Part shown: positions 1-7,668 of the stretch, piece by piece
How positions within the stretch are numbered: position 1 is the first letter of the stretch
Layout of the letters: the number at the start of each line of letters is the position of its first letter
From: a virus
Lineage: Duplodnaviria; Heunggongvirae; Uroviricota; Caudoviricetes
IMG/VR virus record: IMGVR_UViG_2651869696_000012
Direction: 5' to 3' (one strand)
DNA length: 7,668 nucleotides
Notes under the pieces: model-generated
Seen by the model: only the letters and a program-made list of their open reading frames with translations
What the model was told of the DNA's origin: nothing
Database searches by the model: none
Translations under genes and position numbers: made by a program

Positions 1-20
1 AACTTTTAAGATAAAAGATA

Positions 21-40
21 GATATCCCAGAAAGGATATC
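21..40. promoter_or_regulatory. Perfect inverted repeat GATATCC-n6-GGATATC upstream of the methyltransferase gene; candidate operator
   Basis: Read directly: gatatcc (21-27), spacer cagaaa, ggatatc (34-40). Lies about 80 bp upstream of the ATG at 121. Function is inferred only. Confidence 0.25.
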
Positions 41-120
41 CGTTTAGAAAACCTATTAAGTATCTCTTAAAAGAGAGCAAACCTTGTCAAGAGTGATTGC
101 AATAAAAATTTTTATTTCTT

Positions 121-783
121 ATGTCAATTGAGTGTATTTTAATCGGGAAGCATCATGGGGGTTCTGATTACTGGAGAACTCCATTTTTGTTATTTAAGAA
201 CTTACACCGTGAATTTATTTTCAGTCTGGATGGTGCTGCAACTGAGCATGACGCATTGTTGCCACGGTTCACCGATGATATCCACAATCAGTCATGGGTT
301 GGTGAAAGGGTATTCTGTAACCCACCATACAGCGACACTAAAACATTCCTCGTAAAAGCATCTGAAGCAGATTTAGCGGTATTCCTGATGCCCTACCGAC
401 CCCAAACCATATACTGGCTTAAGCACATCTTCACAAACCTGCTTTGCCATGAAATCCGTATTCTTCATCGTGCAGTTAAATGCCTTCCACCAGCAGGGCA
501 TAACGGGCTTGTTATTCGTTCACCGTTTCCAAGTGCAGTCGTTGTTTTTAAAAAAGAACCACGTAAGCATGAAATTACACAGATGGTTTGCTGTGCTGAC
601 ACGCTATTACCGTTAACCATCATTAACCGTGGTGGACTAAGAGGAAGACCCACCATTTACCCACCTGAGACGCTCGACAGCTTCACAAAGCTATACAGGC
701 AAGGAAAACCCATTAAGTGCATTGCAGATGCTCTCAGAATGCCTCTGAGCACGTCATACAGGATTGCTCAAAGGTTGAGCTAA
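121..783 (+). CDS. Phage-type N6-adenine DNA methyltransferase (Dam family) with C-terminal Hin/resolvase-like HTH domain
   Basis: 220-aa ORF. N-terminal part has W-R-T-P near the N-terminus, FSLDGAAT, and the catalytic NPPY tetrapeptide (..VFCNPPYSD..), the pattern I recall for the phage Dam family (Pfam PF05869). The C-terminal ~45 aa (GRPTIYPPETLDSFTKLYRQGKPIKCIADALRMPLSTSYRIAQRL) aligns by eye with the Hin invertase HTH (GRP...G.P...iA......ST.YR). No Shine-Dalgarno before the ATG (AT-rich leader); first in-frame start after the stop at 103-105. Confidence 0.8.
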   Translation: MSIECILIGKHHGGSDYWRTPFLLFKNLHREFIFSLDGAATEHDALLPRFTDDIHNQSWVGERVFCNPPYSDTKTFLVKASEADLAVFLMPYRPQTIYWLKHIFTNLLCHEIRILHRAVKCLPPAGHNGLVIRSPFPSAVVVFKKEPRKHEITQMVCCADTLLPLTIINRGGLRGRPTIYPPETLDSFTKLYRQGKPIKCIADALRMPLSTSYRIAQRLS

Positions 784-831
784 AATTCTCATATAGAGCA
801 CTGATTATGAGAGTGTTAAAGAGGCGATTTC

Positions 832-851
832 CCCTGTCTGGGGTTATTCGC
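832..851. repeat. Copy 1 of a ~20-bp motif CCCTKTCTGGGGTTAT(T)CGC containing a short CCC/GGG hairpin
   Basis: cccctgtctggggttattcgc read directly; a second copy lies ~170 bp downstream (1001-1019). Confidence 0.5.
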
Positions 852-1000
852 TTTTTACTGGAAGGGTTATTTTACAGAGGTTTTTCAAACCCCCTCAATA
901 ATAGAAACGAGCAACAAACGAAGAGCGAGAAATAAAATATTGAGACTGGTGAACGGGGCCTGTAAAGATTGTTTAAGAAGTCGGTTAAGAAGGTGGCTCT

Positions 1001-1019
1001 CCCTTTCTGGGGTTATCGC
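1001..1019. repeat. Copy 2 of the CCCTKTCTGGGGTTATCGC motif
   Basis: ccctttctggggttatcgc; shares the TCTGGGGTTAT core with the copy at 832-851. Confidence 0.5.
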
Positions 1020-1048
1020 CCTGCATCTTAGTGAGTCCAGGAAGTTCT

Positions 1049-1220
1049 CTGTGAAGGGTCTTGTCAGTCCTTTATATTGGGTGATTACAACTCTTTGAAA
1101 AATAAGAACTTTTAGAAATCACTGTTAAGGTTACAGAGTTAACTGTGAAGAGGCTTGTCAGTTCTCTATATATGGCTAATTACAACTTATTGAAAAATAA
1201 GAACTTTTAGAAGTTACTGT
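1049..1220. repeat. Two tandem ~78-bp imperfect direct repeats (units 1049-1125 and 1143-1220) separated by 17 bp
   Basis: Unit 1 ctgtgaagggtcttgtcagtcctttatattgggtgattacaactctttgaaaaataagaacttttagaaatcactgt; unit 2 ctgtgaagaggcttgtcagttctctatatatggctaattacaacttattgaaaaataagaacttttagaagttactgt. Roughly 80-85% identical by eye. Each starts CTGTGAAG and ends ACTGT. Confidence 0.7.
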
Positions 1221-1302
1221 CAGAGAGGTGAACACTTGATAGATACAGCTTTCCGGTTATGTCAAGCTGTTTTTTAATAGATAGCACAAAATGCTAAAGA
1301 TG

Positions 1303-1331
1303 CCCCTATACCATCTCGTACAGGGGGTTTT
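1303..1331 (+). terminator. Candidate intrinsic terminator (possibly bidirectional)
   Basis: Stem cccctatac (1303-1311) / gtacagggg (1318-1326) with one mismatch, 6-nt loop, then GTTTT. Sits between the repeat region and the 3' end of the minus-strand small ORF. Confidence 0.4.
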
Positions 1332-1340
1332 GAAGGGAGT

Positions 1341-1517
1341 TTAACGGGGTTCTGTGTGGTCATTATCCTTAAGGTCAAGCGTCCATGTACGACCGAACAG
1401 TTTAAATACAACAAGCACTCTGACGAGGATGTAGCGGAGTATCAGACCTGCAATCAGCCCAACACCTCCACCAGCCCATACATCAGGTGACCCCAGTTCA
1501 GGAGGGAGATTTACCAT
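1341..1517 (-). CDS. Hypothetical small membrane protein (58 aa from the internal Met; the track ORF extends to 1586)
   Basis: Minus-strand ORF with a hydrophobic segment (GGVGLIAGLILRYILVRVLVVF). The Met at 1515-1517 is preceded on the minus strand by AAGGA with a 6-nt spacer; the upstream Met at 1586 has no SD and lies inside repeat R1. It is the only minus-strand candidate and is locally GC-richer, so it could be spurious. Confidence 0.3.
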   Translation of the reverse strand: MVNLPPELGSPDVWAGGGVGLIAGLILRYILVRVLVVFKLFGRTWTLDLKDNDHTEPR

Positions 1518-1532
1518 TAGTTTTCCTTGTAA

Positions 1533-1629
1533 GACGCTTTCAATCGCATTCTGACACAAAAAAGTACCTGACCTTATAGTTGACATGAAGAGGCCGTTTA
1601 ACTCGTTACAGAGCGATTGAAGAAGTCTG
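1533..1629. repeat. R1: ~97-bp element with ~20-bp terminal inverted repeats; copy 1 of 2
   Basis: Left arm gacgctttcaatcgcattctgacacaaaaaa, variable core, right arm gtttaactcgttacagagcgattgaagaagtctg. Left arm and reverse complement of right arm match (GACgCTtTCAATCGC..TCTG vs GACttCTTCAATCGCTCTG). Second copy at 3200-3320. Confidence 0.7.
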
Positions 1630-1765
1630 TGTGCAATGCAAAAACCATGCGGCCATTCTCATGGTTGATTCGGTTTATCGAATAAACCTCATAGCCACGC
1701 CTCATATTTTACTCTCCCCATAGAACCATTATACCACAGATGTTAATGAAATGTTAAAAAAATGC

Positions 1766-1806
1766 TTGACATTAGTCTTTGAAAATGCTAGCATTGCCTA
1801 TATAAG
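1766..1806 (+). promoter_or_regulatory. Sigma70-like promoter region for the four-gene cassette (two overlapping candidate configurations)
   Basis: TTGACA (1766-1771), 17-bp spacer, extended -10 TGcTAGCAT (1786-1794); alternatively TTGAAA (1779-1784), 16 bp, TATAAG (1801-1806). A-rich tract immediately upstream (1745-1763) resembles an UP element. First gene starts at 1845. Confidence 0.45.
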
Positions 1807-1844
1807 TTAACAGAGAATTAACAATTATAAGGACTAGCTTATGA

Positions 1845-2402
1845 ATGAACGACAGAGAATTTAGAGCGATGCTTCAGGCATCAAGAGAACGCAACAAGCA
1901 CAACTCCTACAGCTACACAGACACCCCCACCAGCCACGAAGTACCCAAGTTCACCAGAGCAGAGCGCAAAGGCATTGACGAAGTAATTCGGGCAATTACA
2001 CCGAGGGAGCGTTATATGTCAATCAGAAAGAGCACGAAGAACACTATCAAGAATTATTTGAATAACTTTGATTCTTACGAGCAGTCATCAAGCTTGCTTG
2101 ATGATATTTTTATTGGATTCTGTAGAAGTGAAGGTCACCCGAAATACAACAAAAAACTATTTTATCTTCTAAAGAATCTTGATGAAATTAACGCAGCCAG
2201 CGTGACAAATTATCTTCAGCGACAAGCAACCAGACTTAGTTATGAATTACCAAGCGATAAATATTGTGCATTGCTTGCTGTAATGTGTGCAAAGCTAATT
2301 GGTGTTGTTGAACATCATGTTGCCGTTGGGAATATTGAACCAATGGAAAACGAGCAACCAGATTTCGAGTTTGACCCGTATTTAGTTACAGAGGAATTTT
2401 AA
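1845..2402 (+). CDS. Hypothetical protein (185 aa) with acidic C-terminal tail
   Basis: ORF with AAGGA 11 nt upstream; first gene of a translationally coupled cassette; C-terminus ..ENEQPDFEFDPYLVTEEF. No family recognised. Confidence 0.7.
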   Translation: MNDREFRAMLQASRERNKHNSYSYTDTPTSHEVPKFTRAERKGIDEVIRAITPRERYMSIRKSTKNTIKNYLNNFDSYEQSSSLLDDIFIGFCRSEGHPKYNKKLFYLLKNLDEINAASVTNYLQRQATRLSYELPSDKYCALLAVMCAKLIGVVEHHVAVGNIEPMENEQPDFEFDPYLVTEEF

Positions 2403-2403
2403 A

Positions 2404-2685
2404 ATGAAAAACAGACACACTCTAACCCGTATTTCAGAGGAAGCTTTTAATGAGCTTACCAGAATTAAACGAGCGACTAACTTGCCTCATCAAACTGTTA
2501 TGCAACTTGCAATTGCTAAAGAAGTTACTGAGTCGGATTTACTTAAATATCCAGTCTCTAAAGGTCGCAAACACATCCGAATTGCTCAGGACGCTTTAGA
2601 TACTTTGAAGGCACTTAACAGCTTTAAAATTGATATTGCCCGACTATTGAGTATTAAGATTCACAAGTTAGCGATGGAGGTTTAA
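2404..2685 (+). CDS. Putative ribbon-helix-helix-like DNA-binding protein (93 aa)
   Basis: GAGG 9 nt upstream (inside the TTACAGAGG motif). N-terminus NRHTLTRISEEAFNELTRIKRATNLPHQTVMQLAIAKEV fits the beta-strand / helix A / turn / helix B pattern of CopG/Arc-type RHH proteins; assignment by pattern only. Confidence 0.65.
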   Translation: MKNRHTLTRISEEAFNELTRIKRATNLPHQTVMQLAIAKEVTESDLLKYPVSKGRKHIRIAQDALDTLKALNSFKIDIARLLSIKIHKLAMEV

Positions 2686-2900
2686 TGCTATGCGTTACCT
2701 TTGAATACCACACGGATAAAATGATTCGCTACATCTCCGACCTCCTGATTAAAGGAAACGGATTCGGTGACATCCATAACTCAAGAGATATTTTCATTAA
2801 AGCCATTGGCCCAAATGAAGTACTGAAAACAGCAGTTACACCGGAATGGTTTGAGCGTCACAAGATTGAATTAGGTTATTGGGGTGAGGAGGTTTTATGA
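2685..2900 (+). CDS. Hypothetical protein (71 aa)
   Basis: Start overlaps upstream stop (TAATG); GGAGG 4 nt upstream; no recognisable family. Confidence 0.6.
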   Translation: MLCVTFEYHTDKMIRYISDLLIKGNGFGDIHNSRDIFIKAIGPNEVLKTAVTPEWFERHKIELGYWGEEVL

Positions 2901-3184
2901 AACCTTGGCATGAAGATGTTAGACGATATTTTACAGAACACCTTATCTATGATGAATCCAGTGATTCCCTGTGCTGGTCTGATGGAGAGTCAGTCACGAT
3001 AAATACCGACGACTACGGCAACAAAACATTTAATATAGGCCGATATACTTTCTACGTGAAATATGTTGTCTGGTTCCTTTATCATGGCTATCAATCCAAT
3101 AAGCAAATTATCCATCGAAATGGTAACAGAGCCGATACCAGACCAAAAAATCTTATGCAAGTCCGAGACTTTAAGAGAAATTAG
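2897..3184 (+). CDS. Small HNH-type (HNH_3-like) endonuclease-fold protein, apparently degenerate
   Basis: ATGA overlap with upstream gene; GAGGAGG 4 nt upstream. Sequence ..IYDESSDSLCW..GNKTF..YTFYVKYVVWFLYHGYQSNKQIIHRNGNRADTRPKNLMQV follows the architecture of phage HNH proteins (YDPETG..W ... HRLAW ... DHIDGN..NN...NLR) but with substitutions at usually conserved positions (HRL to KYV; DNR/NN to DT). Confidence 0.7.
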   Translation: MKPWHEDVRRYFTEHLIYDESSDSLCWSDGESVTINTDDYGNKTFNIGRYTFYVKYVVWFLYHGYQSNKQIIHRNGNRADTRPKNLMQVRDFKRN

Positions 3185-3199
3185 AAAAATAGCTTCTCA

Positions 3200-3320
3200 G
3201 ACGCTCTCAATCGCATTCTAACGCAAAAAACTATCTTATTTTAGGGTGGGTAATACCACTGTACAGGCTACCCCTGAAAAAGACTGTTTAGCTCGTTACA
3301 GAGCGATTGAGGAGGTCTGG
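3200..3320. repeat. R2: ~121-bp element with ~20-bp terminal inverted repeats; copy 2 of 2
   Basis: Left arm gacgctctcaatcgcattctaacgcaaaaaa, 55-bp variable core, right arm gtttagctcgttacagagcgattgaggaggtctgg. Same arms as R1 at 1533-1629 with a different, longer core. Immediately after the cassette stop (3184) and 20 bp before the next gene. Confidence 0.7.
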
Positions 3321-3340
3321 TAAAAAGGAGATTTTAAGAA

Positions 3341-3670
3341 ATGAGAGAATTAAACTTTCCATTACAAATTATGCTTGATATCGACACAGTAAATATGATT
3401 CAACACTTCGTTGATTCCGGTGTATCAATTGACTTTGACAGGCTGTTAAAGCTGATGGCTGATAATGCAGAAAACATCTCTGACTTTATTCAGTCGGTGG
3501 AGTTTAACGAGCCTCGAATGATGCTACCAATTACCGACTCAAACATGAAAAGATTGGTTATCGAGCAAACGAACAAACACAGTATTTCCCCAGAGCAATT
3601 TTTGAAAGGTGCTGTGACAATCCTGCACAGCGATAATATTCTGGTGACGGATTCTATGAGGGTTCACTAA
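3341..3670 (+). CDS. Hypothetical acidic protein (109 aa)
   Basis: AAGGAG 10 nt upstream; Asp/Glu-rich; no recognisable family. Confidence 0.7.
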   Translation: MRELNFPLQIMLDIDTVNMIQHFVDSGVSIDFDRLLKLMADNAENISDFIQSVEFNEPRMMLPITDSNMKRLVIEQTNKHSISPEQFLKGAVTILHSDNILVTDSMRVH

Positions 3671-3747
3671 TGGGATTGATAATTGCTTGGACAGCTTTAG
3701 GTTTATTTGTTGGTTGCTGGGTGGGCAACGCGGTAAATAAAAATTGA
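3670..3747 (+). CDS. Candidate 25-aa single-pass hydrophobic peptide (MGLIIAWTALGLFVGCWVGNAVNKN)
   Basis: ATG at 3670-3672 overlaps the TAA of the upstream gene (TAATG coupling); stop TGA at 3745-3747. Below the ORF-track cutoff; hydrophobic core with polar C-terminus. Confidence 0.3.
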   Translation: MGLIIAWTALGLFVGCWVGNAVNKN

Positions 3748-3771
3748 TGTTACCAATCTGTTAAAAGGCTG

Positions 3772-3800
3772 TTGACAAATAATCTTAAGCATGACATAAT
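3772..3800 (+). promoter_or_regulatory. Sigma70-like promoter
   Basis: TTGACA (3772-3777), 17-bp spacer, CATAAT (3795-3800); AT-rich upstream. Confidence 0.5.
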
Positions 3801-3806
3801 TGTATA

Positions 3807-3998
3807 TATAGGAAGAGCAATTTTTCCTAAAATCATATTTTCAATAATCCGATGGATGGATATTCTGAGTTGGAAAGGTGCAATGCTTTTCGTCATGGCC
3901 TTTCAGTTTAGTCTGAGAGGTCATCTCAAAAAGTGCTTAATCATTCATTATTGAACCCTTACAGCTTTGCCCTAACTCATGATTAGGGCGTTTTCTTT
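3807..3998 (+). ncRNA. Candidate small RNA (~190 nt) between the promoter and an intrinsic terminator
   Basis: No ORF with an RBS in this unit (the 60-aa track ORF starts inside the -35 box). Internal 12-bp stem ATGGCCTTTCAG (3895-3906) / CTGAGAGGTCAT (3913-3924) with a 6-nt loop; its two non-Watson-Crick positions are G-U wobbles only in the + strand RNA. Ends at the terminator at 3969-3998. Coordinates approximate. Confidence 0.3.
3969..3998 (+). terminator. Intrinsic terminator
   Basis: Stem gccctaa (3969-3975) / ttagggc (3983-3989), 7-nt loop, followed by gTTTTCTTT. Confidence 0.6.
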
Positions 3999-4067
3999 AA
4001 GAGTTTTTAAACAGAGCTTTTAAAGAAAGTTTTTCCTGAAACTTCGTTAACGTTAAAGCAAACCTTC

Positions 4068-4101
4068 AAAGCCCTTCACAGATTATGTTTAGGGCTTTTT
4101 T
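4068..4101 (+). terminator. Second candidate intrinsic terminator
   Basis: aaagccct (4068-4075) / agggcttt (4091-4098) with a 15-nt loop, followed by a T run to 4101. Loop is large, so lower confidence. Confidence 0.45.
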
Positions 4102-4218
4102 CAGCTTTTAAAAAGCATACTTGGCAAACGCCTTTTAAGTCTCTTCTAAGTTCGTAGGCTGTCAGGTGTGCTTTTTAAAAACTGAAACATAAATTATCTT
4201 AGAAGAGGAAAAATAATA

Positions 4219-4923
4219 ATGTCTATCCGTGATGAACATGAAATGATTATCGAAAACAAACCAAGTGCACTTGATATTCACGAATTAAGTTTGCGTGAAT
4301 CTTTTGATAGAGCTTGGCGGGAATCACACGAAGTAAATAAAGGTCCATATATTCCACCAGAACCACTCGAGATTCCAAGAGTTGAAATTGATTTTTCGAT
4401 GAATGAGGAATGTGAGCTTGATTTGAAACTGAAGCTGCAACGCCGATATTTCCAAGCTATTAAAGACTCTCAAGAAGCAATGAGAAGTGTTTACGAGAAA
4501 ATTCAGTCCAAGCTTGAAGACGAAATCGACGAAATGGCTATTTTGATGGAGCTTCAAACCAATTCTTATGCTTATTTCTCTCGACTAGACCGTGACGGTT
4601 GGGGGTATGACCCTGTAGAGATTGGTAAAGTGATTGCAGATTTACCAGAAGGTCAAAGGGTTATTCGTACGGAAAGGGCTATCAGAGCGCCACATCAACT
4701 GTCTCTAATTGTTGCTGATAAATCACAAGCTGAGCTTGAAGAAATTGCCAAAGAGAAACTGATGAAAGCAAGAGAAAATGAGATTAATTTGCTGAAATCA
4801 AGACTGGCTAAGCTGATTAGTGACCATCAAGCGCTGGCTAAGGAGTACCGTCAAGAGTTGGCACAGATTATCAGCTTCAATGATTTTCTGAGTGTTCCAC
4901 GAGAATTTAGCAAGGCTGTTTAA
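4219..4923 (+). CDS. Hypothetical glutamate-rich, probably helical/coiled-coil protein (234 aa)
   Basis: GAGG 10 nt upstream; long charged helical-looking stretches (..AELEEIAKEKLMKARENEINLLKSRLAKLISDHQALAKEYRQELAQ..); no recognisable family. Confidence 0.75.
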   Translation: MSIRDEHEMIIENKPSALDIHELSLRESFDRAWRESHEVNKGPYIPPEPLEIPRVEIDFSMNEECELDLKLKLQRRYFQAIKDSQEAMRSVYEKIQSKLEDEIDEMAILMELQTNSYAYFSRLDRDGWGYDPVEIGKVIADLPEGQRVIRTERAIRAPHQLSLIVADKSQAELEEIAKEKLMKARENEINLLKSRLAKLISDHQALAKEYRQELAQIISFNDFLSVPREFSKAV

Positions 4924-4945
4924 TTATGCATATGTGAGGTGATGA

Positions 4946-5161
4946 ATGATTGATTTAACAGAACGCTATGAAACTATTAAGTCTGTTTGTGAAAACTTAA
5001 AGTTACAAACTAAGCCAGCCTTAAGAATTAAAACCAAACATCAAATTATCACCTCACGCAAACCAAAAACACGCAAGATTCCAAAGTGGTGTATCGACCG
5101 TATCCCTTCCGATGCTCAAATTATAGGTGAAACGGAACTACATTATCTTGTCAGGCATTAA
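4946..5161 (+). CDS. Hypothetical small basic protein (71 aa)
   Basis: TGAGG 6 nt upstream; Lys/Arg-rich (..RIKTKHQIITSRKPKTRKIPKW..); follows the upstream gene after 22 bp. Confidence 0.6.
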   Translation: MIDLTERYETIKSVCENLKLQTKPALRIKTKHQIITSRKPKTRKIPKWCIDRIPSDAQIIGETELHYLVRH

Positions 5162-5210
5162 AAAAGATTGGTTGGGTGTATGAGATAGGTTCTATCGAAT
5201 CTATAACACG

Positions 5211-5252
5211 GGGAGAGATTATCGATATTATTCGGTAGTTTCTCCCTTTTTT
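5211..5252 (+). terminator. Candidate intrinsic terminator after the 71-aa gene
   Basis: Stem gggagaga (5211-5218) / tttctccc (5239-5246), one G-U, 20-nt loop, followed by TTTTTT (5247-5252). Confidence 0.5.
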
Positions 5253-5260
5253 GTATGTGT

Positions 5261-5330
5261 GCTACGTGAAATCTTCTGAACAGATATACCCACCAAAAAT
5301 TATTTTTTACGTAGCTCACGCTTAACAGAG
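5261..5330. repeat. Repeat A: 70-bp element directly upstream of the tape-measure-like gene; copy 1 of 2
   Basis: gctacgtgaaatcttctgaacagatatacccaccaaaaattattttttacgtagctcacgcttaacagag. Contains inverted repeat GCTACGT...ACGTAGC and ends in TTAACAGAG, followed by the SD GAGGTGA. Second copy at 7406-7475. Confidence 0.7.
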
Positions 5331-5344
5331 GTGAAATATGAACA

Positions 5345-7393
5345 ATGGCACAATTTAAAGTTGATAGTTTTATCGTTGAGCTAGGCTTCAATGAAAACGT
5401 TATTAAGAGCTTGCAAAGAGTTGAAAAGGCAGCTTTGCAGTCAGCACAAAGAATTGAAAAGAACCTTAACAAAGGCTTCAAGATTAATACCAAGCAACTT
5501 GACAGCAATCTGACAAGTTCTTTGAAGTCAATGGAAGGAAAAATTAATAAGACCTTTGACCGTCTGGAAGCTAGAGCAAGAAACACAAAAGTTTTCCGTT
5601 TCACAAGTCAGGTTAACGATGCTGTTAATCCTCCAAAACAACCGAGACAGCCACGAATTAGCGGCAACAGAGCAATCACAGCAGCTTATTCAGCTAATAT
5701 GTCTAAGTTAAAGGGCTTTGACCCTATTTTGCAGAAATACATCAAATCTCAGTTTTACGGGCTATCTGCTAAAGCCGGTTCAATGGATTCTTCAAAATTC
5801 AATGAGAAGCTGTCTCAGTTAAATGCTTCAGTCAGAGAAGCAATTGCTAAAGCTAAAGGTCATACATCCACCAGCATTAATGGTGACAGAGCAGCTAGCA
5901 GCCTTGATAACCTGTCTTCGGCAGCAGTCAAAACAGCAGGTGCATTTATCTCAATGCAGGCTGTATTAGCCAGTTATCAGAAGATTATGGAAGTTGGTTT
6001 ACAGCGTGCAAGTGCTGAGCGTTCAATTGATTTCGTATTTGATAAAGATGCAGGTCAGGTAAAAGAGTTCACAAAGTCATTAGCTCAAACAACGGGTTTA
6101 GATATCGCTGAACTGCAATCACAGTTTGCTGGTTTTGGTGCTTCAGCTAAAGAATCTATGGGTATTCAGGGTTCTGAAGAACTTTTTAAAAATATGATTG
6201 GCTATTCTCGTTTAATGGGTCGAAGTGAAGAAGAGATTAAGCGAGCATTAACAGCGCTATCGCAGATGGCTGGTAAGGGTCAGGTGATGGCTGAGGAGCT
6301 GAAAGGTCAATTAGCTGAAGCTGTTCCTGGTATGGTTCAGGTATTCGCTAAAGCAACCGGAAAGACTGAACAGGAATTATTTGATGCCATGAAGAAGGGG
6401 GCTTTAAAATCTGCCGATACTCTTCAGAAGGTCACTCAGGAACTGAATAAACAAATCACCGCTAAAGGTGGCTGGAAAGCCATTTCAGAAAGTACACAGG
6501 CACAACTAGGGAACTTGAAAAACTCTTGGAATACCACGCTTGACAGTATTTTCAGAGGTTCTGAAGATGGTTTACAGGACTTCACAAGAAGCTTAACAAC
6601 GCTTTTAAATAGTCTTGGTGGGAGTGGTAAAAGTCTTGGTGAATCTCTTGGTAGTCTCATGACTTCTATGTCAAGTGGTGTGGATTCATTGACTGATATC
6701 AGCTACAGGGTAAGAGCATTCTTTGATGAGGTGACATTAGCTTACCGTGGTTTAACCGATGAACAAAAGAAAGTAGTTGATGCTTTAGGTTCTGGCTTGA
6801 TTAATAGTTTAAAAGTCTTGGCTGGTGTTATTGCTGTGAATAAAGTTGTTGGTGTAACCAGAAGTATTTACGGGCTTATGACTGCTATCACAAGATTAGG
6901 TCAGGTTGCTGATACTACAGCGGATAACGTGAATAGAAAGAATGGGAAACCATCAAGACTGAATCTTGGGAATATGCTATTAGCTGGTAGCGCTCTCTAT
7001 GCAGGTTATGAAAGATTAGCCTCTACACCTGAACGAATGGAAGCACAAGCTAAATTACCAGAGTTAGCTAAAGAATCTGGACTTAAGCCAGTATTTACTA
7101 TGGACGATGTGAAAGGTTGGTTTAATAGTGCAGCTATGAATCTTGCTAACTTCCAGCATCCAGAATTAAACAACATTAAGCAAGATGCGGCATTAACGAA
7201 TACGGATATCCAAAGCCTGAGAGATGAAATTAGTGCTTTGAGCAAACGTATTCAGGAGCCTGTGAAAGTTTCACTTGGTGGTGAAGTTGCTATTAAACCA
7301 GATGAAACCAGCTTTATGACATTTAACAGCAGTCTGTACGACCAATACGCAGAAGCTACGCTATTAAGTTCATCATTCCCAGAAGATGATTGA
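5345..7393 (+). CDS. Tape-measure-domain protein (682 aa)
   Basis: Long ORF with GAGGTGA 11 nt upstream. Central region ..RALTALSQMAGKGQVMAEELKGQLAEAVPGMVQVFAKATGKTEQELFDAMKKGALKSADTLQKV.. matches, as I recall it, the conserved tape-measure domain of lambda-H-like proteins (TIGR02675-type). Gly/Ser/Ala/Lys-rich with hydrophobic segments (..LAGVIAVNKVVGV..). Short for a classical tape measure and lacks adjacent tail genes. Confidence 0.8.
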   Translation: MAQFKVDSFIVELGFNENVIKSLQRVEKAALQSAQRIEKNLNKGFKINTKQLDSNLTSSLKSMEGKINKTFDRLEARARNTKVFRFTSQVNDAVNPPKQPRQPRISGNRAITAAYSANMSKLKGFDPILQKYIKSQFYGLSAKAGSMDSSKFNEKLSQLNASVREAIAKAKGHTSTSINGDRAASSLDNLSSAAVKTAGAFISMQAVLASYQKIMEVGLQRASAERSIDFVFDKDAGQVKEFTKSLAQTTGLDIAELQSQFAGFGASAKESMGIQGSEELFKNMIGYSRLMGRSEEEIKRALTALSQMAGKGQVMAEELKGQLAEAVPGMVQVFAKATGKTEQELFDAMKKGALKSADTLQKVTQELNKQITAKGGWKAISESTQAQLGNLKNSWNTTLDSIFRGSEDGLQDFTRSLTTLLNSLGGSGKSLGESLGSLMTSMSSGVDSLTDISYRVRAFFDEVTLAYRGLTDEQKKVVDALGSGLINSLKVLAGVIAVNKVVGVTRSIYGLMTAITRLGQVADTTADNVNRKNGKPSRLNLGNMLLAGSALYAGYERLASTPERMEAQAKLPELAKESGLKPVFTMDDVKGWFNSAAMNLANFQHPELNNIKQDAALTNTDIQSLRDEISALSKRIQEPVKVSLGGEVAIKPDETSFMTFNSSLYDQYAEATLLSSSFPEDD

Positions 7394-7405
7394 TAATAGT
7401 CGAAT

Positions 7406-7475
7406 GCTACGTGAAATCTCTTGAACAGATATACCCACTGAAAAATAGAATTTACGTACAACACGCTTAACAGAG
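7406..7475. repeat. Repeat B: second copy of the 70-bp element, directly downstream of the tape-measure-like gene
   Basis: gctacgtgaaatctcttgaacagatatacccactgaaaaatagaatttacgtacaacacgcttaacagag; about 85% identical to copy A by eye; same length and same TTAACAGAG 3' end. Confidence 0.7.
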
Positions 7476-7489
7476 AAAATACTTAAATA

Positions 7490-7533
7490 TCAAAGGCTTG
7501 GTTAAAAATGATTAAAATACACTAAGCCTTTGA
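7490..7533. other. Perfect 10-bp inverted repeat TCAAAGGCTT-n24-AAGCCTTTGA (hairpin or operator)
   Basis: Read directly; flanked by a short direct repeat ATCAAAGG (7488-7495, 7535-7542). No T run on the + strand; the - strand is T-rich after it. Confidence 0.4.
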
Positions 7534-7668
7534 AATCAAAGGAGAATTTAATGATTTACACTAATCAGCTTCGGGTGATGCTGCCAACTTACTGATTTAG
7601 TGTATGATGGTGTTTTTGAGGTGCTCCAGTGGCTTCTGTTTCTATCAGCTGTCCCTCCTGTTCAGCTA

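What the first reader, a model, noticed from the sequence alone, without database searches (positions are those of the whole stretch)
2897..3184. Minimal HNH-type protein with substitutions at conserved positions
The 95-aa protein keeps the overall layout of phage HNH_3-type endonucleases (YD..W N-terminal motif, central hydrophobic block, H-x-N-G-N ... N-L), but positions that are usually His/Asn are replaced (KYVVW instead of HRLAW; D-T instead of N-N), and it ends shortly after the core with no DNA-binding extension. It may be an inactive HNH fold reused as a DNA-binding or regulatory subunit, for instance a terminase-associated HNH-like factor or a homing-endonuclease remnant.
Basis: partly seen in the sequence, partly recalled or inferred. 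Interest (0 to 1): 0.5.

Follow-up and report, generated by a model that had tools for sequence, protein, structure and literature searches.

The report
Truncated HNH nuclease fold lacking metal site
This small, well-conserved Escherichia gene encodes the front part of a phage HNH homing-endonuclease fold that has lost both metal-binding residues and its DNA-binding tail, so it is most likely a non-cutting binding protein rather than the "HNH endonuclease" that databases call it.

Summary

The decisive changes were missed. I72 replaces the metal-ligand Asp (I-HmuI D74). The helix carrying the metal-binding Asn (I-HmuI N96) is not predicted, because the protein ends 10 residues after the "N-L" Asn. 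Only the general-base His (H73) and the "N-L" Asn (N85) remain.

Across 107 related modules these two ligands are kept or lost together (Fisher p = 1e-21). A syntenic 90-aa variant in 67 other E. coli genomes has Phe in place of the His.

The gene lies in an 11-12 kb serine-recombinase island, confined to Escherichia, whose tail genes resemble those of Felix O1-like phages.

Best reading: a selected, catalytically inactive HNH_3 module that acts as a binding or regulatory subunit. Its exact partner is unknown. Interest is modest.

The parts
2897..3184 (+). 95-aa HNH_3-like gene (hnhL), stop codon included
2886..2892 (+). Shine-Dalgarno GAGGAGG, 4 nt upstream of the ATG
   Evidence: Read directly from the sequence.
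3059..3061 (+). Codon K55, at the position of the conserved His of 'HRLAW' (I-HmuI H56)
   Evidence: Alignments. His occupies this position in 33/45 last modules and 13/15 single-module proteins. K55 is invariant in the query lineage and in the His-less variant.
3110..3115 (+). Codons I72-H73: Ile replaces the metal-ligand Asp (I-HmuI D74); the general-base His (I-HmuI H75) is kept
   Evidence: The I72 codon varies only synonymously (ATC/ATT) among alleles.
3137..3139 (+). Codon T81, at the conserved Asn of 'D-N-R' (I-HmuI N83)
   Evidence: Asn occupies this position in 37/45 last modules.
3149..3154 (+). Codons N85-L86: the retained 'N-L' pair (I-HmuI N87-L88)
   Evidence: N85 is conserved in 106 of 107 related modules.
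3155..3184 (+). C-terminal tail M87-N95 plus stop codon. No helix is predicted. R94 sits at the +9 position where catalytic relatives have the metal-binding Asn (I-HmuI N96).
   Evidence: +9 residue table. (no helix after strand 86-88; pLDDT below 50 for residues 93-95). (Pfam match stops at profile position 39 of 46).
2685..2900 (+). orf71a, a 71-aa ORF translationally coupled to hnhL (ATGA overlap). A homologue lies next to the HNH-like gene in every island copy fetched, with the gene order swapped in the His-less variant islands.
   Evidence: No Pfam, PHROG, NCBIfam or PADLOC match.
1845..2685 (+). orf185 and orf93, the upstream genes of the same tightly packed operon (1-nt gap, then a 1-nt overlap)
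   Evidence: Gene order is conserved in all island copies. orf93 has a weak DndE-like match only.

Best explanation
The gene encodes a stand-alone, catalytically inactive derivative of the I-HmuI/HNH_3 homing-endonuclease catalytic domain. It keeps the N-terminal helix, the four-stranded sheet, the central helix and the beta-hairpin of the His-Me finger. It has lost the Asp before the catalytic His, the whole alpha-helix that carries the metal-binding Asn, and the C-terminal AP2-type DNA-binding domain. It therefore cannot assemble the one-metal active site. Selection maintains it as a binding module, either for nucleic acid through its basic C-terminal half or for a protein partner through its acidic sheet face. 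It probably works together with the adjacent orf71a product inside the operon of a mobile serine-recombinase island. Shown here: fold, residue equivalences, loss of both metal ligands, purifying selection, and synteny with a His-less variant. Inferred: lack of nuclease activity. Speculative: what it binds.
Against: The general-base His (H73) and the N-L Asn (N85) are strictly conserved in the query-type alleles, so some phosphate-binding or residual chemistry cannot be excluded. N95, the last residue, is invariant and lies one position beyond the expected Asn; D91 is nearby. If the tail ordered on DNA, one of them might contact a metal. The AF2 tail has low confidence and the MSA holds only 19 sequences. 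The sheet region that contacts DNA in I-HmuI has a net charge of -5 here, outside the -2 to +10 range of 107 other modules. This argues against I-HmuI-like DNA binding and leaves the binding target open. No biochemical data exist. The module sample consists of hits to an Asp-less query, so it is biased towards Asp-less modules.
Confidence: 0.65

Rival explanations
1. It is still an active minimal nuclease or nickase with a non-canonical metal site. H73 would act as general base, and the metal would be held by N95, D91, N75/N77 or DNA phosphates. DNA targeting would be supplied in trans by a partner such as orf71a or orf93.
For: H73, N75, G76, N77, D80, R82, N85 and L86 are all retained and invariant among the alleles. 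N95 lies at +10, one residue from the canonical +9 Asn. From general knowledge, some His-Me nucleases such as I-PpoI and Serratia nuclease use a single protein ligand (an Asn) for the metal.
Against: That single ligand is always the helix Asn/His, and the helix is exactly what is missing here. The Asp is replaced by a hydrophobic Ile. The syntenic variant that fills the same slot has Phe for the His and ends 4 residues after N-L. D91 is Gly in one natural allele. Asp-less and Asn-less states co-occur as a class, which points to a coherent loss of the site.
Confidence: 0.15
2. It acts in trans as a partner, regulator or decoy of canonical HNH_3-AP2 endonucleases, encoded either by the island itself or by an infecting Felix O1-like phage. 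In that case it would play the role of the Asp-less N-terminal module found fused to catalytic modules in tandem proteins.
For: In 45 multi-module proteins, Asp-less modules precede a usually catalytic last module. Some island copies carry a canonical 174-aa HNH_3-AP2 protein that is 47% identical to Felix O1 ORF95. Felix O1 encodes several such endonucleases. The query's sheet face is acidic, which is more typical of a protein-binding or DNA-mimicking surface.
Against: Only 3 of the 8 island contexts shown carry the canonical enzyme, whereas the degenerate gene is in all of them. No interaction data exist. Proteins made only of Asp-less modules also occur, so such modules do not always need a fused catalytic partner.
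Confidence: 0.12
3. It is a functionless remnant of a homing endonuclease whose 3' half was deleted, still an open reading frame only because the event is recent.
For: It looks like the first 90 residues of an HNH_3-AP2 gene. Occasional frameshifted or truncated copies exist in the databases (P0004-P0009).
Against: pN/pS is 0.09 with 16 purely synonymous variable codons. The ORF is intact in 226 complete genomes and is better conserved than its neighbours. It is translationally coupled and has a strong RBS. A 39%-identical variant is conserved at the same locus, which implies long-term maintenance.
Confidence: 0.04
4. It is a terminase-associated HNH packaging factor of the HK97 gp74 type.
Against: No terminase, portal or capsid gene occurs in the window or in any of the island copies examined. 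The Pfam match is to HNH_3 only, not PF01844, and the protein has a single Cys, so no CxxC zinc site. Both metal ligands are missing.
Confidence: 0.03

Closest known systems
I-HmuI (PDB 1U3E), HNH homing endonuclease of Bacillus phage SPO1; Pfam HNH_3, His-Me finger group 2
   Different: D74 becomes I72. N96 and its helix are absent. H56 becomes K55 and N83 becomes T81. The C-terminal helices and HTH DNA-binding domain are missing (95 aa against 174 aa). The sheet region is acidic.
Phage HNH_3-AP2 endonucleases, for example Felix O1 ORF95, ORF106 and ORF128, and the 174-aa protein in some copies of the same island
   Same: The closest canonical sequence relatives: 29-30% identity over residues 2-89 or 33-89, including the N-terminal 'W-x-E-x-V-x-R-Y' helix.
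   Different: They have the full H / D-H / N-N / N-L / Asn(+9) set plus an AP2 domain. The query stops right after N-L-M-Q and lacks the Asp and the Asn(+9).
Asp-less HNH_3 modules: N-terminal or internal repeats of multi-module HNH_3 proteins, and short stand-alone proteins (P0010, P0042, P0067, P0071). These are unnamed, and I found no description of them in the literature.
   Same: Same signature: no Asp before the His, no Asn at +9, no AP2 domain, with W59, N85 and L86 kept. Pfam matches stop at about profile positions 36-42 of 46.
   Different: The query is a single free-standing module confined to Escherichia. It carries K55-Y56 and T81 and has an unusually acidic sheet. Only P0010, the L003 variant and P0024 share 'KYV(V/I)WFL'.
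Smad MH1 and NFI DNA-binding domains (degenerate His-Me fingers)
   Different: The structural similarity is only distant and there is no sequence relationship. Those domains lack the His and bind zinc, and their DNA binding has been shown experimentally. Here it has not been tested.
HK97 gp74 / GVE2-type terminase-associated HNH proteins
   Same: Small phage-borne proteins of the HNH superfamily.
   Different: They belong to a different Pfam family (PF01844 type, with zinc-binding cysteines) and sit next to terminase genes. Neither feature applies here.

Membership tests
Pfam HNH_3 (PF13392) / I-HmuI-like His-Me finger | Sequence match above the curated gathering score | tested here: met
   34.3 bits against a cut-off of 24.8, E = 1.8e-8. 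The match covers profile positions 2-39 of 46 only.
Pfam HNH_3 (PF13392) / I-HmuI-like His-Me finger | Fold of the I-HmuI N-terminal catalytic domain | tested here: met
Catalytically competent His-Me (HNH) nuclease | General-base His at the end of the first beta-strand (I-HmuI H75) | tested here: met
   H73. It is replaced by Phe in the syntenic variant.
Catalytically competent His-Me (HNH) nuclease | Asn/His in the first turn of the alpha-helix that binds the metal (I-HmuI N96) | tested here: not met
   The residue at +9 from N85 is R94, the chain ends at N95, and no helix is predicted. The rule comes from PMC5714182.
Catalytically competent His-Me (HNH) nuclease | D/E/H immediately before the catalytic His as second metal ligand (I-HmuI D74) | tested here: not met
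   I72.
Catalytically competent His-Me (HNH) nuclease | The conserved middle Asn of the H-N-N motif (the 'N-L' Asn, I-HmuI N87) | tested here: met
   N85-L86, conserved in 106 of 107 related modules.
Catalytically competent His-Me (HNH) nuclease | Metal-dependent DNA cleavage in vitro | not testable with these tools
   Requires purified protein.
HNH_3-AP2 / I-HmuI-type homing endonuclease | C-terminal DNA-binding domain (AP2, NUMOD or HTH) that gives target specificity | tested here: not met
   No further Pfam domain; the protein ends 10 residues after N85.
Terminase-associated HNH (HK97 gp74-like) | Gene located next to terminase and portal genes | tested here: not met
   None is present in the window or in the island copies examined.
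Terminase-associated HNH (HK97 gp74-like) | PF01844-type HNH motif with a CxxC zinc site | tested here: not met
   Only HNH_3 matches, and the sequence has a single Cys.
Decaying homing-endonuclease pseudogene | Relaxed selection, frameshifts and patchy presence | tested here: not met
   pN/pS 0.09; the ORF is intact in all 9 alleles; the position in the island is fixed.
Non-catalytic His-Me finger binding domain (Smad MH1-like principle) | Loss of active-site residues with retention of the fold under selection | tested here: met
Non-catalytic His-Me finger binding domain (Smad MH1-like principle) | Demonstrated DNA or partner binding | not testable with these tools
   Only the charge distribution could be examined: sheet -5, core +5.

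The most novel reading that the evidence does not exclude
The 11-12 kb serine-recombinase island is a PLE-like satellite or anti-phage island aimed at virulent Felix O1-type myophages. It carries a Felix O1-like tape measure protein and ORF68-like baseplate protein, but no capsid or packaging genes. In this reading the 95-aa protein, with orf71a, is a domesticated, catalytically dead copy of the phage's own HNH_3-AP2 homing endonuclease. It would be used to bind the helper's DNA, or the helper's endonuclease or its target site, to hijack or block the phage.
Probability: 0.1. Interest if true: 0.75.

Novelty: new variant of a known kind. Interest (0 to 1): 0.38.

Why it matters
RefSeq names this protein "HNH endonuclease" in several hundred E. 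coli genomes, and the exact sequence is indexed in about 11,000 assembly blocks. The evidence here says it almost certainly cannot cut DNA by the HNH mechanism, so that annotation is misleading.

More generally, HNH_3 modules fall into two coherent classes. One is catalytic, with Asp plus helix Asn, usually followed by AP2. The other has lost both ligands together and recurs as N-terminal repeats or as small free-standing proteins. I found no description of that second class in the literature. It gives a simple sequence rule (Asp before the His, plus Asn nine residues after the N-L Asn) for separating real nucleases from pseudo-nucleases in phage annotation.

The host island may be of greater interest than the gene. 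It is small and mobile, inserts at several chromosomal sites through interchangeable large serine recombinases, and carries tail genes resembling those of a virulent phage.

Tried and rejected
- A single-sequence phmmer search against the PDB returned only spurious scFv antibody hits. The profile search was needed to reach I-HmuI.
- Single-sequence AF2 was unusable (pLDDT 44). The 19-sequence MSA fixed this.
- The word-indexed homologue search found only near-identical Escherichia proteins. The exhaustive scan was needed.
- NCBIfam and PADLOC gave nothing for the protein.
- tblastn against phage records gave only three weak hits.
- I first assumed that the 'N-L' Asn was the metal ligand. Counting along the I-HmuI chain showed it is N87, and that the metal ligand N96 lies nine residues later. 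I then redid the tabulation.
- The original I-HmuI structure paper is not in the library, so the roles of H56 and N83 (here K55 and T81) remain unassigned.
- An RNA-structure reading of the conserved inverted repeat downstream of the gene was tested and is not supported by covariation. There is no Rfam match.
- Literature searches for the island, for Felix O1 satellites and for degenerate HNH_3 modules found nothing relevant.
- A toxin-antitoxin or nuclease-immunity reading of the orf71a/hnhL pair was considered. I set it aside because the nuclease site is missing, and missing entirely in the His-less variant.

Full report
**The observation**

The ORF at 2897-3184 (+) exists as described and encodes 95 aa. 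A GAGGAGG ribosome-binding site sits four bases before the ATG. The ATG overlaps the TGA of the upstream 71-aa ORF (ATGA), so the two are translationally coupled. Pfam HNH_3 matches residues 53-89 at 34.3 bits, above the curated cut-off of 24.8 (E = 1.8e-8), but only over profile positions 2-39 of 46. Three PHROG HNH-endonuclease families also match. The similarity is therefore real. RefSeq already names the orthologues "HNH endonuclease".

**Relatives**

A word-indexed search found only near-identical Escherichia proteins. An exhaustive HMMER scan of 1.84 billion representative proteins gave just 66 hits at E <= 1e-3. These were the protein's own cluster, then a 78-aa protein at 42% identity (P0010), then HNH_3 proteins at 25-44% identity. 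Among one genome per species for 185,579 species, only Escherichia albertii carries a relative. The lineage is an isolated, Escherichia-restricted offshoot of HNH_3.

**Fold**

With a 19-sequence alignment, AlphaFold2 gives a confident model (mean pLDDT 91.7, pTM 0.83). Its elements are helix 6-15, strands 16-19, 24-27, 43-47 and 50-53, helix 54-63, and a beta-hairpin at 71-73 and 86-88. A short tail follows that is not helical, and confidence is low for residues 93-95.

| Search | Top result |
|---|---|
| Foldseek against the PDB | I-HmuI first |
| Foldseek against viral models | More than 100 predicted phage HNH or homing-endonuclease structures, TM up to 0.83 |

**Active site**

A profile built from the alignment recovers I-HmuI at E = 1.5e-9. 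Counting along the chain gives these equivalences:

| I-HmuI | Query | State |
|---|---|---|
| H56 | K55 | replaced |
| D74 | I72 | replaced (metal ligand lost) |
| H75 | H73 | kept (general base) |
| N82-N83 | D80-T81 | replaced |
| N87-L88 | N85-L86 | kept |
| N96 | nothing equivalent | R94 is at that spacing; the protein ends at N95 |

The literature gives D74, H75 and N96 as the catalytic residues of I-HmuI (PMC12724721). For the whole superfamily, the site is built on the beta-strand His and the Asn/His in the first turn of the helix. That helix residue binds the metal directly, often helped by a D/E/H just before the His (PMC5714182).

The query keeps the His but has lost both metal ligands, one by substitution and one by truncation of the helix. 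The roles of H56 and N83 in I-HmuI could not be checked, because the structure paper is not held.

**Is this loss a pattern or an accident?**

I extracted all 107 HNH_3-like modules from the 63 full-length hits.

- Asp at position 72 and Asn at +9 are both present in 44 modules, both absent in 56, and split in only 7 (Fisher p = 1.1e-21).
- Modules with both are usually the last or only module. In the examples scanned with Pfam, a weak AP2 domain follows them, and Pfam matches them over positions 1-46.
- Modules with neither are mostly the N-terminal or internal repeats of two- and three-module proteins (43 of 47 non-terminal modules), or short free-standing proteins such as P0010, P0042 and P0067. 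Pfam matches to these stop at positions 36-42.

The query belongs to this second, coherent class. The sample is biased towards relatives of an Asp-less query. That bias does not affect the co-variation itself.

**The closest relatives have gone further**

In some copies of the same island, the slot is filled by a 90-aa protein that is 39% identical to the query. It reads I-I-F-R-D-G-N where the query reads I-I-H-R-N-G-N, and it ends four residues after N-L. It is present in 67 of 5426 complete E. coli genomes and falls just below the Pfam threshold. P0024 contains two His-less 'KYVVWFL' modules interleaved with mostly sub-threshold HTH-type Pfam matches; only MarR_2 (29.0 bits) reaches its cut-off. 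K55, Y56, W59, N85 and L86 are invariant across both island variants. H73, T81 and D80 are not. Whatever function the island requires of this slot, it does not need the catalytic His.

**The gene is in use**

It occurs in 226 of 5426 complete E. coli genomes, always on the chromosome, at >= 95.8% nucleotide identity. The surrounding island is only 85-91% identical between the same genomes. Among nine distinct alleles, 22 codons vary and only six change the amino acid: H5N, T13A, I47V, V54M, Q70K and D91G. None of these is at a motif position. pN/pS is 0.09, and the excess of synonymous change is significant (binomial p = 9e-9). This rules out a decaying remnant.

**Charge**

The sheet segment (residues 16-50) has a net charge of -5. 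[quoted passage not shown] The -5 value lies outside the range of all 107 other modules (-2 to +10, mean +2.9). The core segment (residues 51-88) is unusually basic at +5. DNA binding in the I-HmuI manner is therefore doubtful. A protein partner, or backbone binding through the basic half, are both possible.

**Neighbourhood**

The gene is the last of a tightly packed operon: orf185, orf93, orf71a, hnhL. An orf71a homologue lies next to the HNH-like gene in every copy examined. In the His-less variant islands it follows the gene instead of preceding it. This is weak evidence for a functional pair.

The whole unit is an 11-12 kb island that ends in a large serine recombinase (Resolvase + Recombinase + Zn ribbon). 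It is inserted at four or more chromosomal sites, each with a different recombinase:

- within yecE
- between yciI and tonB
- next to wrbA/yccJ
- between msyB and a lipid A acyltransferase gene

It has no capsid, portal or terminase gene. This excludes the terminase-associated reading.

Its tape measure protein aligns end to end with that of Felix O1 (28% identity, E = 2e-69). Its Dit-like protein is 73% identical to Felix O1 ORF68, which follows the tape measure gene in that virulent myophage, the same order as in the island. Three of the eight island contexts shown carry, in place of the Dam-like methyltransferase, a canonical 174-aa HNH_3-AP2 protein with the complete catalytic set. That protein is 47% identical to Felix O1 ORF95 and 29% identical to the query over residues 2-89. 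The degenerate gene plausibly derives from this kind of phage homing endonuclease.

**Conclusion**

The most likely explanation is a catalytically dead HNH_3 module kept by selection as a binding or regulatory subunit of the island.

- Shown: fold, residue equivalences, loss of both metal ligands, class behaviour, selection and synteny.
- Inferred: absence of nuclease activity.
- Open: what it binds.

Rivals in order of likelihood are:

1. A non-canonical active site. This is disfavoured by the missing helix, the hydrophobic Ile and the His-less variant.
2. A trans-acting partner or decoy for canonical HNH_3-AP2 enzymes. This is compatible with the main reading but untested.
3. A functionless remnant. 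This is contradicted by selection.
4. A terminase cofactor. This is contradicted by context and motif type.

Degenerate His-Me fingers are known in principle (Smad MH1). A ligand-less, helix-less HNH_3 class, and this stand-alone member, appear to be undescribed. I therefore rate it a new variant of a known kind, of modest interest.

Noticed in passing
window 1-7668; L001 13378-24760; L002, L003, L004, L019-L026: The window is part of an 11-12 kb island that ends in a large serine recombinase and is inserted at four or more chromosomal sites: yecE, yciI/tonB, near wrbA/yccJ, and msyB/lipid A acyltransferase. Each site has its own recombinase. The island has no capsid, portal or terminase genes but carries a tape measure protein and a Dit-like tail protein. 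It looks like a satellite-like or minimal mobile element. I found no description of it in the literature.
   Followed up: partly
window 5345-7393 (tape measure protein); L001 22379-23152 (Dit-like); Felix O1 L027 11882-14907: The island's Dit-like protein is 73% identical to Felix O1 ORF68. Its tape measure protein aligns over its full length with Felix O1 ORF67 (28% identity, E = 2e-69), and the gene order is the same. Hits occur in 299 records, mostly Felixounavirus-type virulent myophages. This hints that the island interacts with, or derives from, that phage group.
   Followed up: partly
window 1526-1629 and 3193-3322: A repeated intergenic module of about 105-130 nt (80-86% identical) flanks the orf185-orf93-orf71a-hnhL operon. 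Copy B starts 9 nt after the hnhL stop codon and folds as a long hairpin (-47.8 kcal/mol, z = -5.7). Its 19-mer core lies just downstream of the HNH-like gene in every related locus fetched except L003, where one base differs. Covariation does not support an RNA structure and there is no Rfam match. It could be an operator, a processing site or a recombination boundary.
   Followed up: partly
L020 6852-7376 (-), also L021, L025 and L012: In some island copies the Dam-like methyltransferase slot holds a canonical 174-aa HNH_3-AP2 endonuclease with the full catalytic set. It is 47% identical to Felix O1 ORF95. The variable region therefore swaps between a methyltransferase, a small resolvase/invertase and a homing-type endonuclease.
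   Followed up: partly
L003 8440-8712; L016 1-273; L018 2762-3031: A 90-aa His-less variant (I-I-F-R-D-G-N) occupies the same slot in 67 of 5426 E. coli genomes and in E. albertii. There the orf71a-like partner lies downstream rather than upstream, sometimes with an extra 87-aa ORF in between.
   Followed up: yes
window 121-783: The Dam-type N6-adenine methyltransferase matches Pfam Dam over its N-terminal 83 residues only (PHROG 111 covers residues 15-151). It has a C-terminal resolvase-type HTH (weak HTH_7 and HTH_23 matches) and matches PADLOC 'orphan methyltransferase'. This gene is the most divergent one between island copies (70-85% nucleotide identity).
   Followed up: no
window 7573-7668: The window ends in an IS1 terminus (100% identical to IS1 copies in P1 and SfIV records). 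It lies where other island copies have the Dit-like gene, so this copy of the island is disrupted by IS1.
   Followed up: partly
window 4219-4923: The 234-aa ORF upstream of the tape measure gene is named 'transposase' by PGAP in some genomes (for example L005 and L008-L010). It has no supporting Pfam, PHROG or NCBIfam transposase match here, so that name looks unreliable.
   Followed up: no
window 4099-4187: A 28-nt inverted repeat (86% complementary, 33-nt spacer) lies just upstream of orf234. It produced a sub-threshold, certainly spurious, Rfam miRNA match. It may be a terminator or an operator.
   Followed up: no
proteins P0013-P0064 (one search hits): Many proteobacterial or phage 'HNH endonucleases' of about 250-300 aa are tandem proteins. 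One or two ligand-less HNH_3 modules are followed by one catalytic module, and by a weak AP2 match in the examples scanned with Pfam. Some proteins consist only of ligand-less modules (P0025, P0038, P0040, P0043, P0049, P0055, P0068). This architecture does not seem to have been described.
   Followed up: partly
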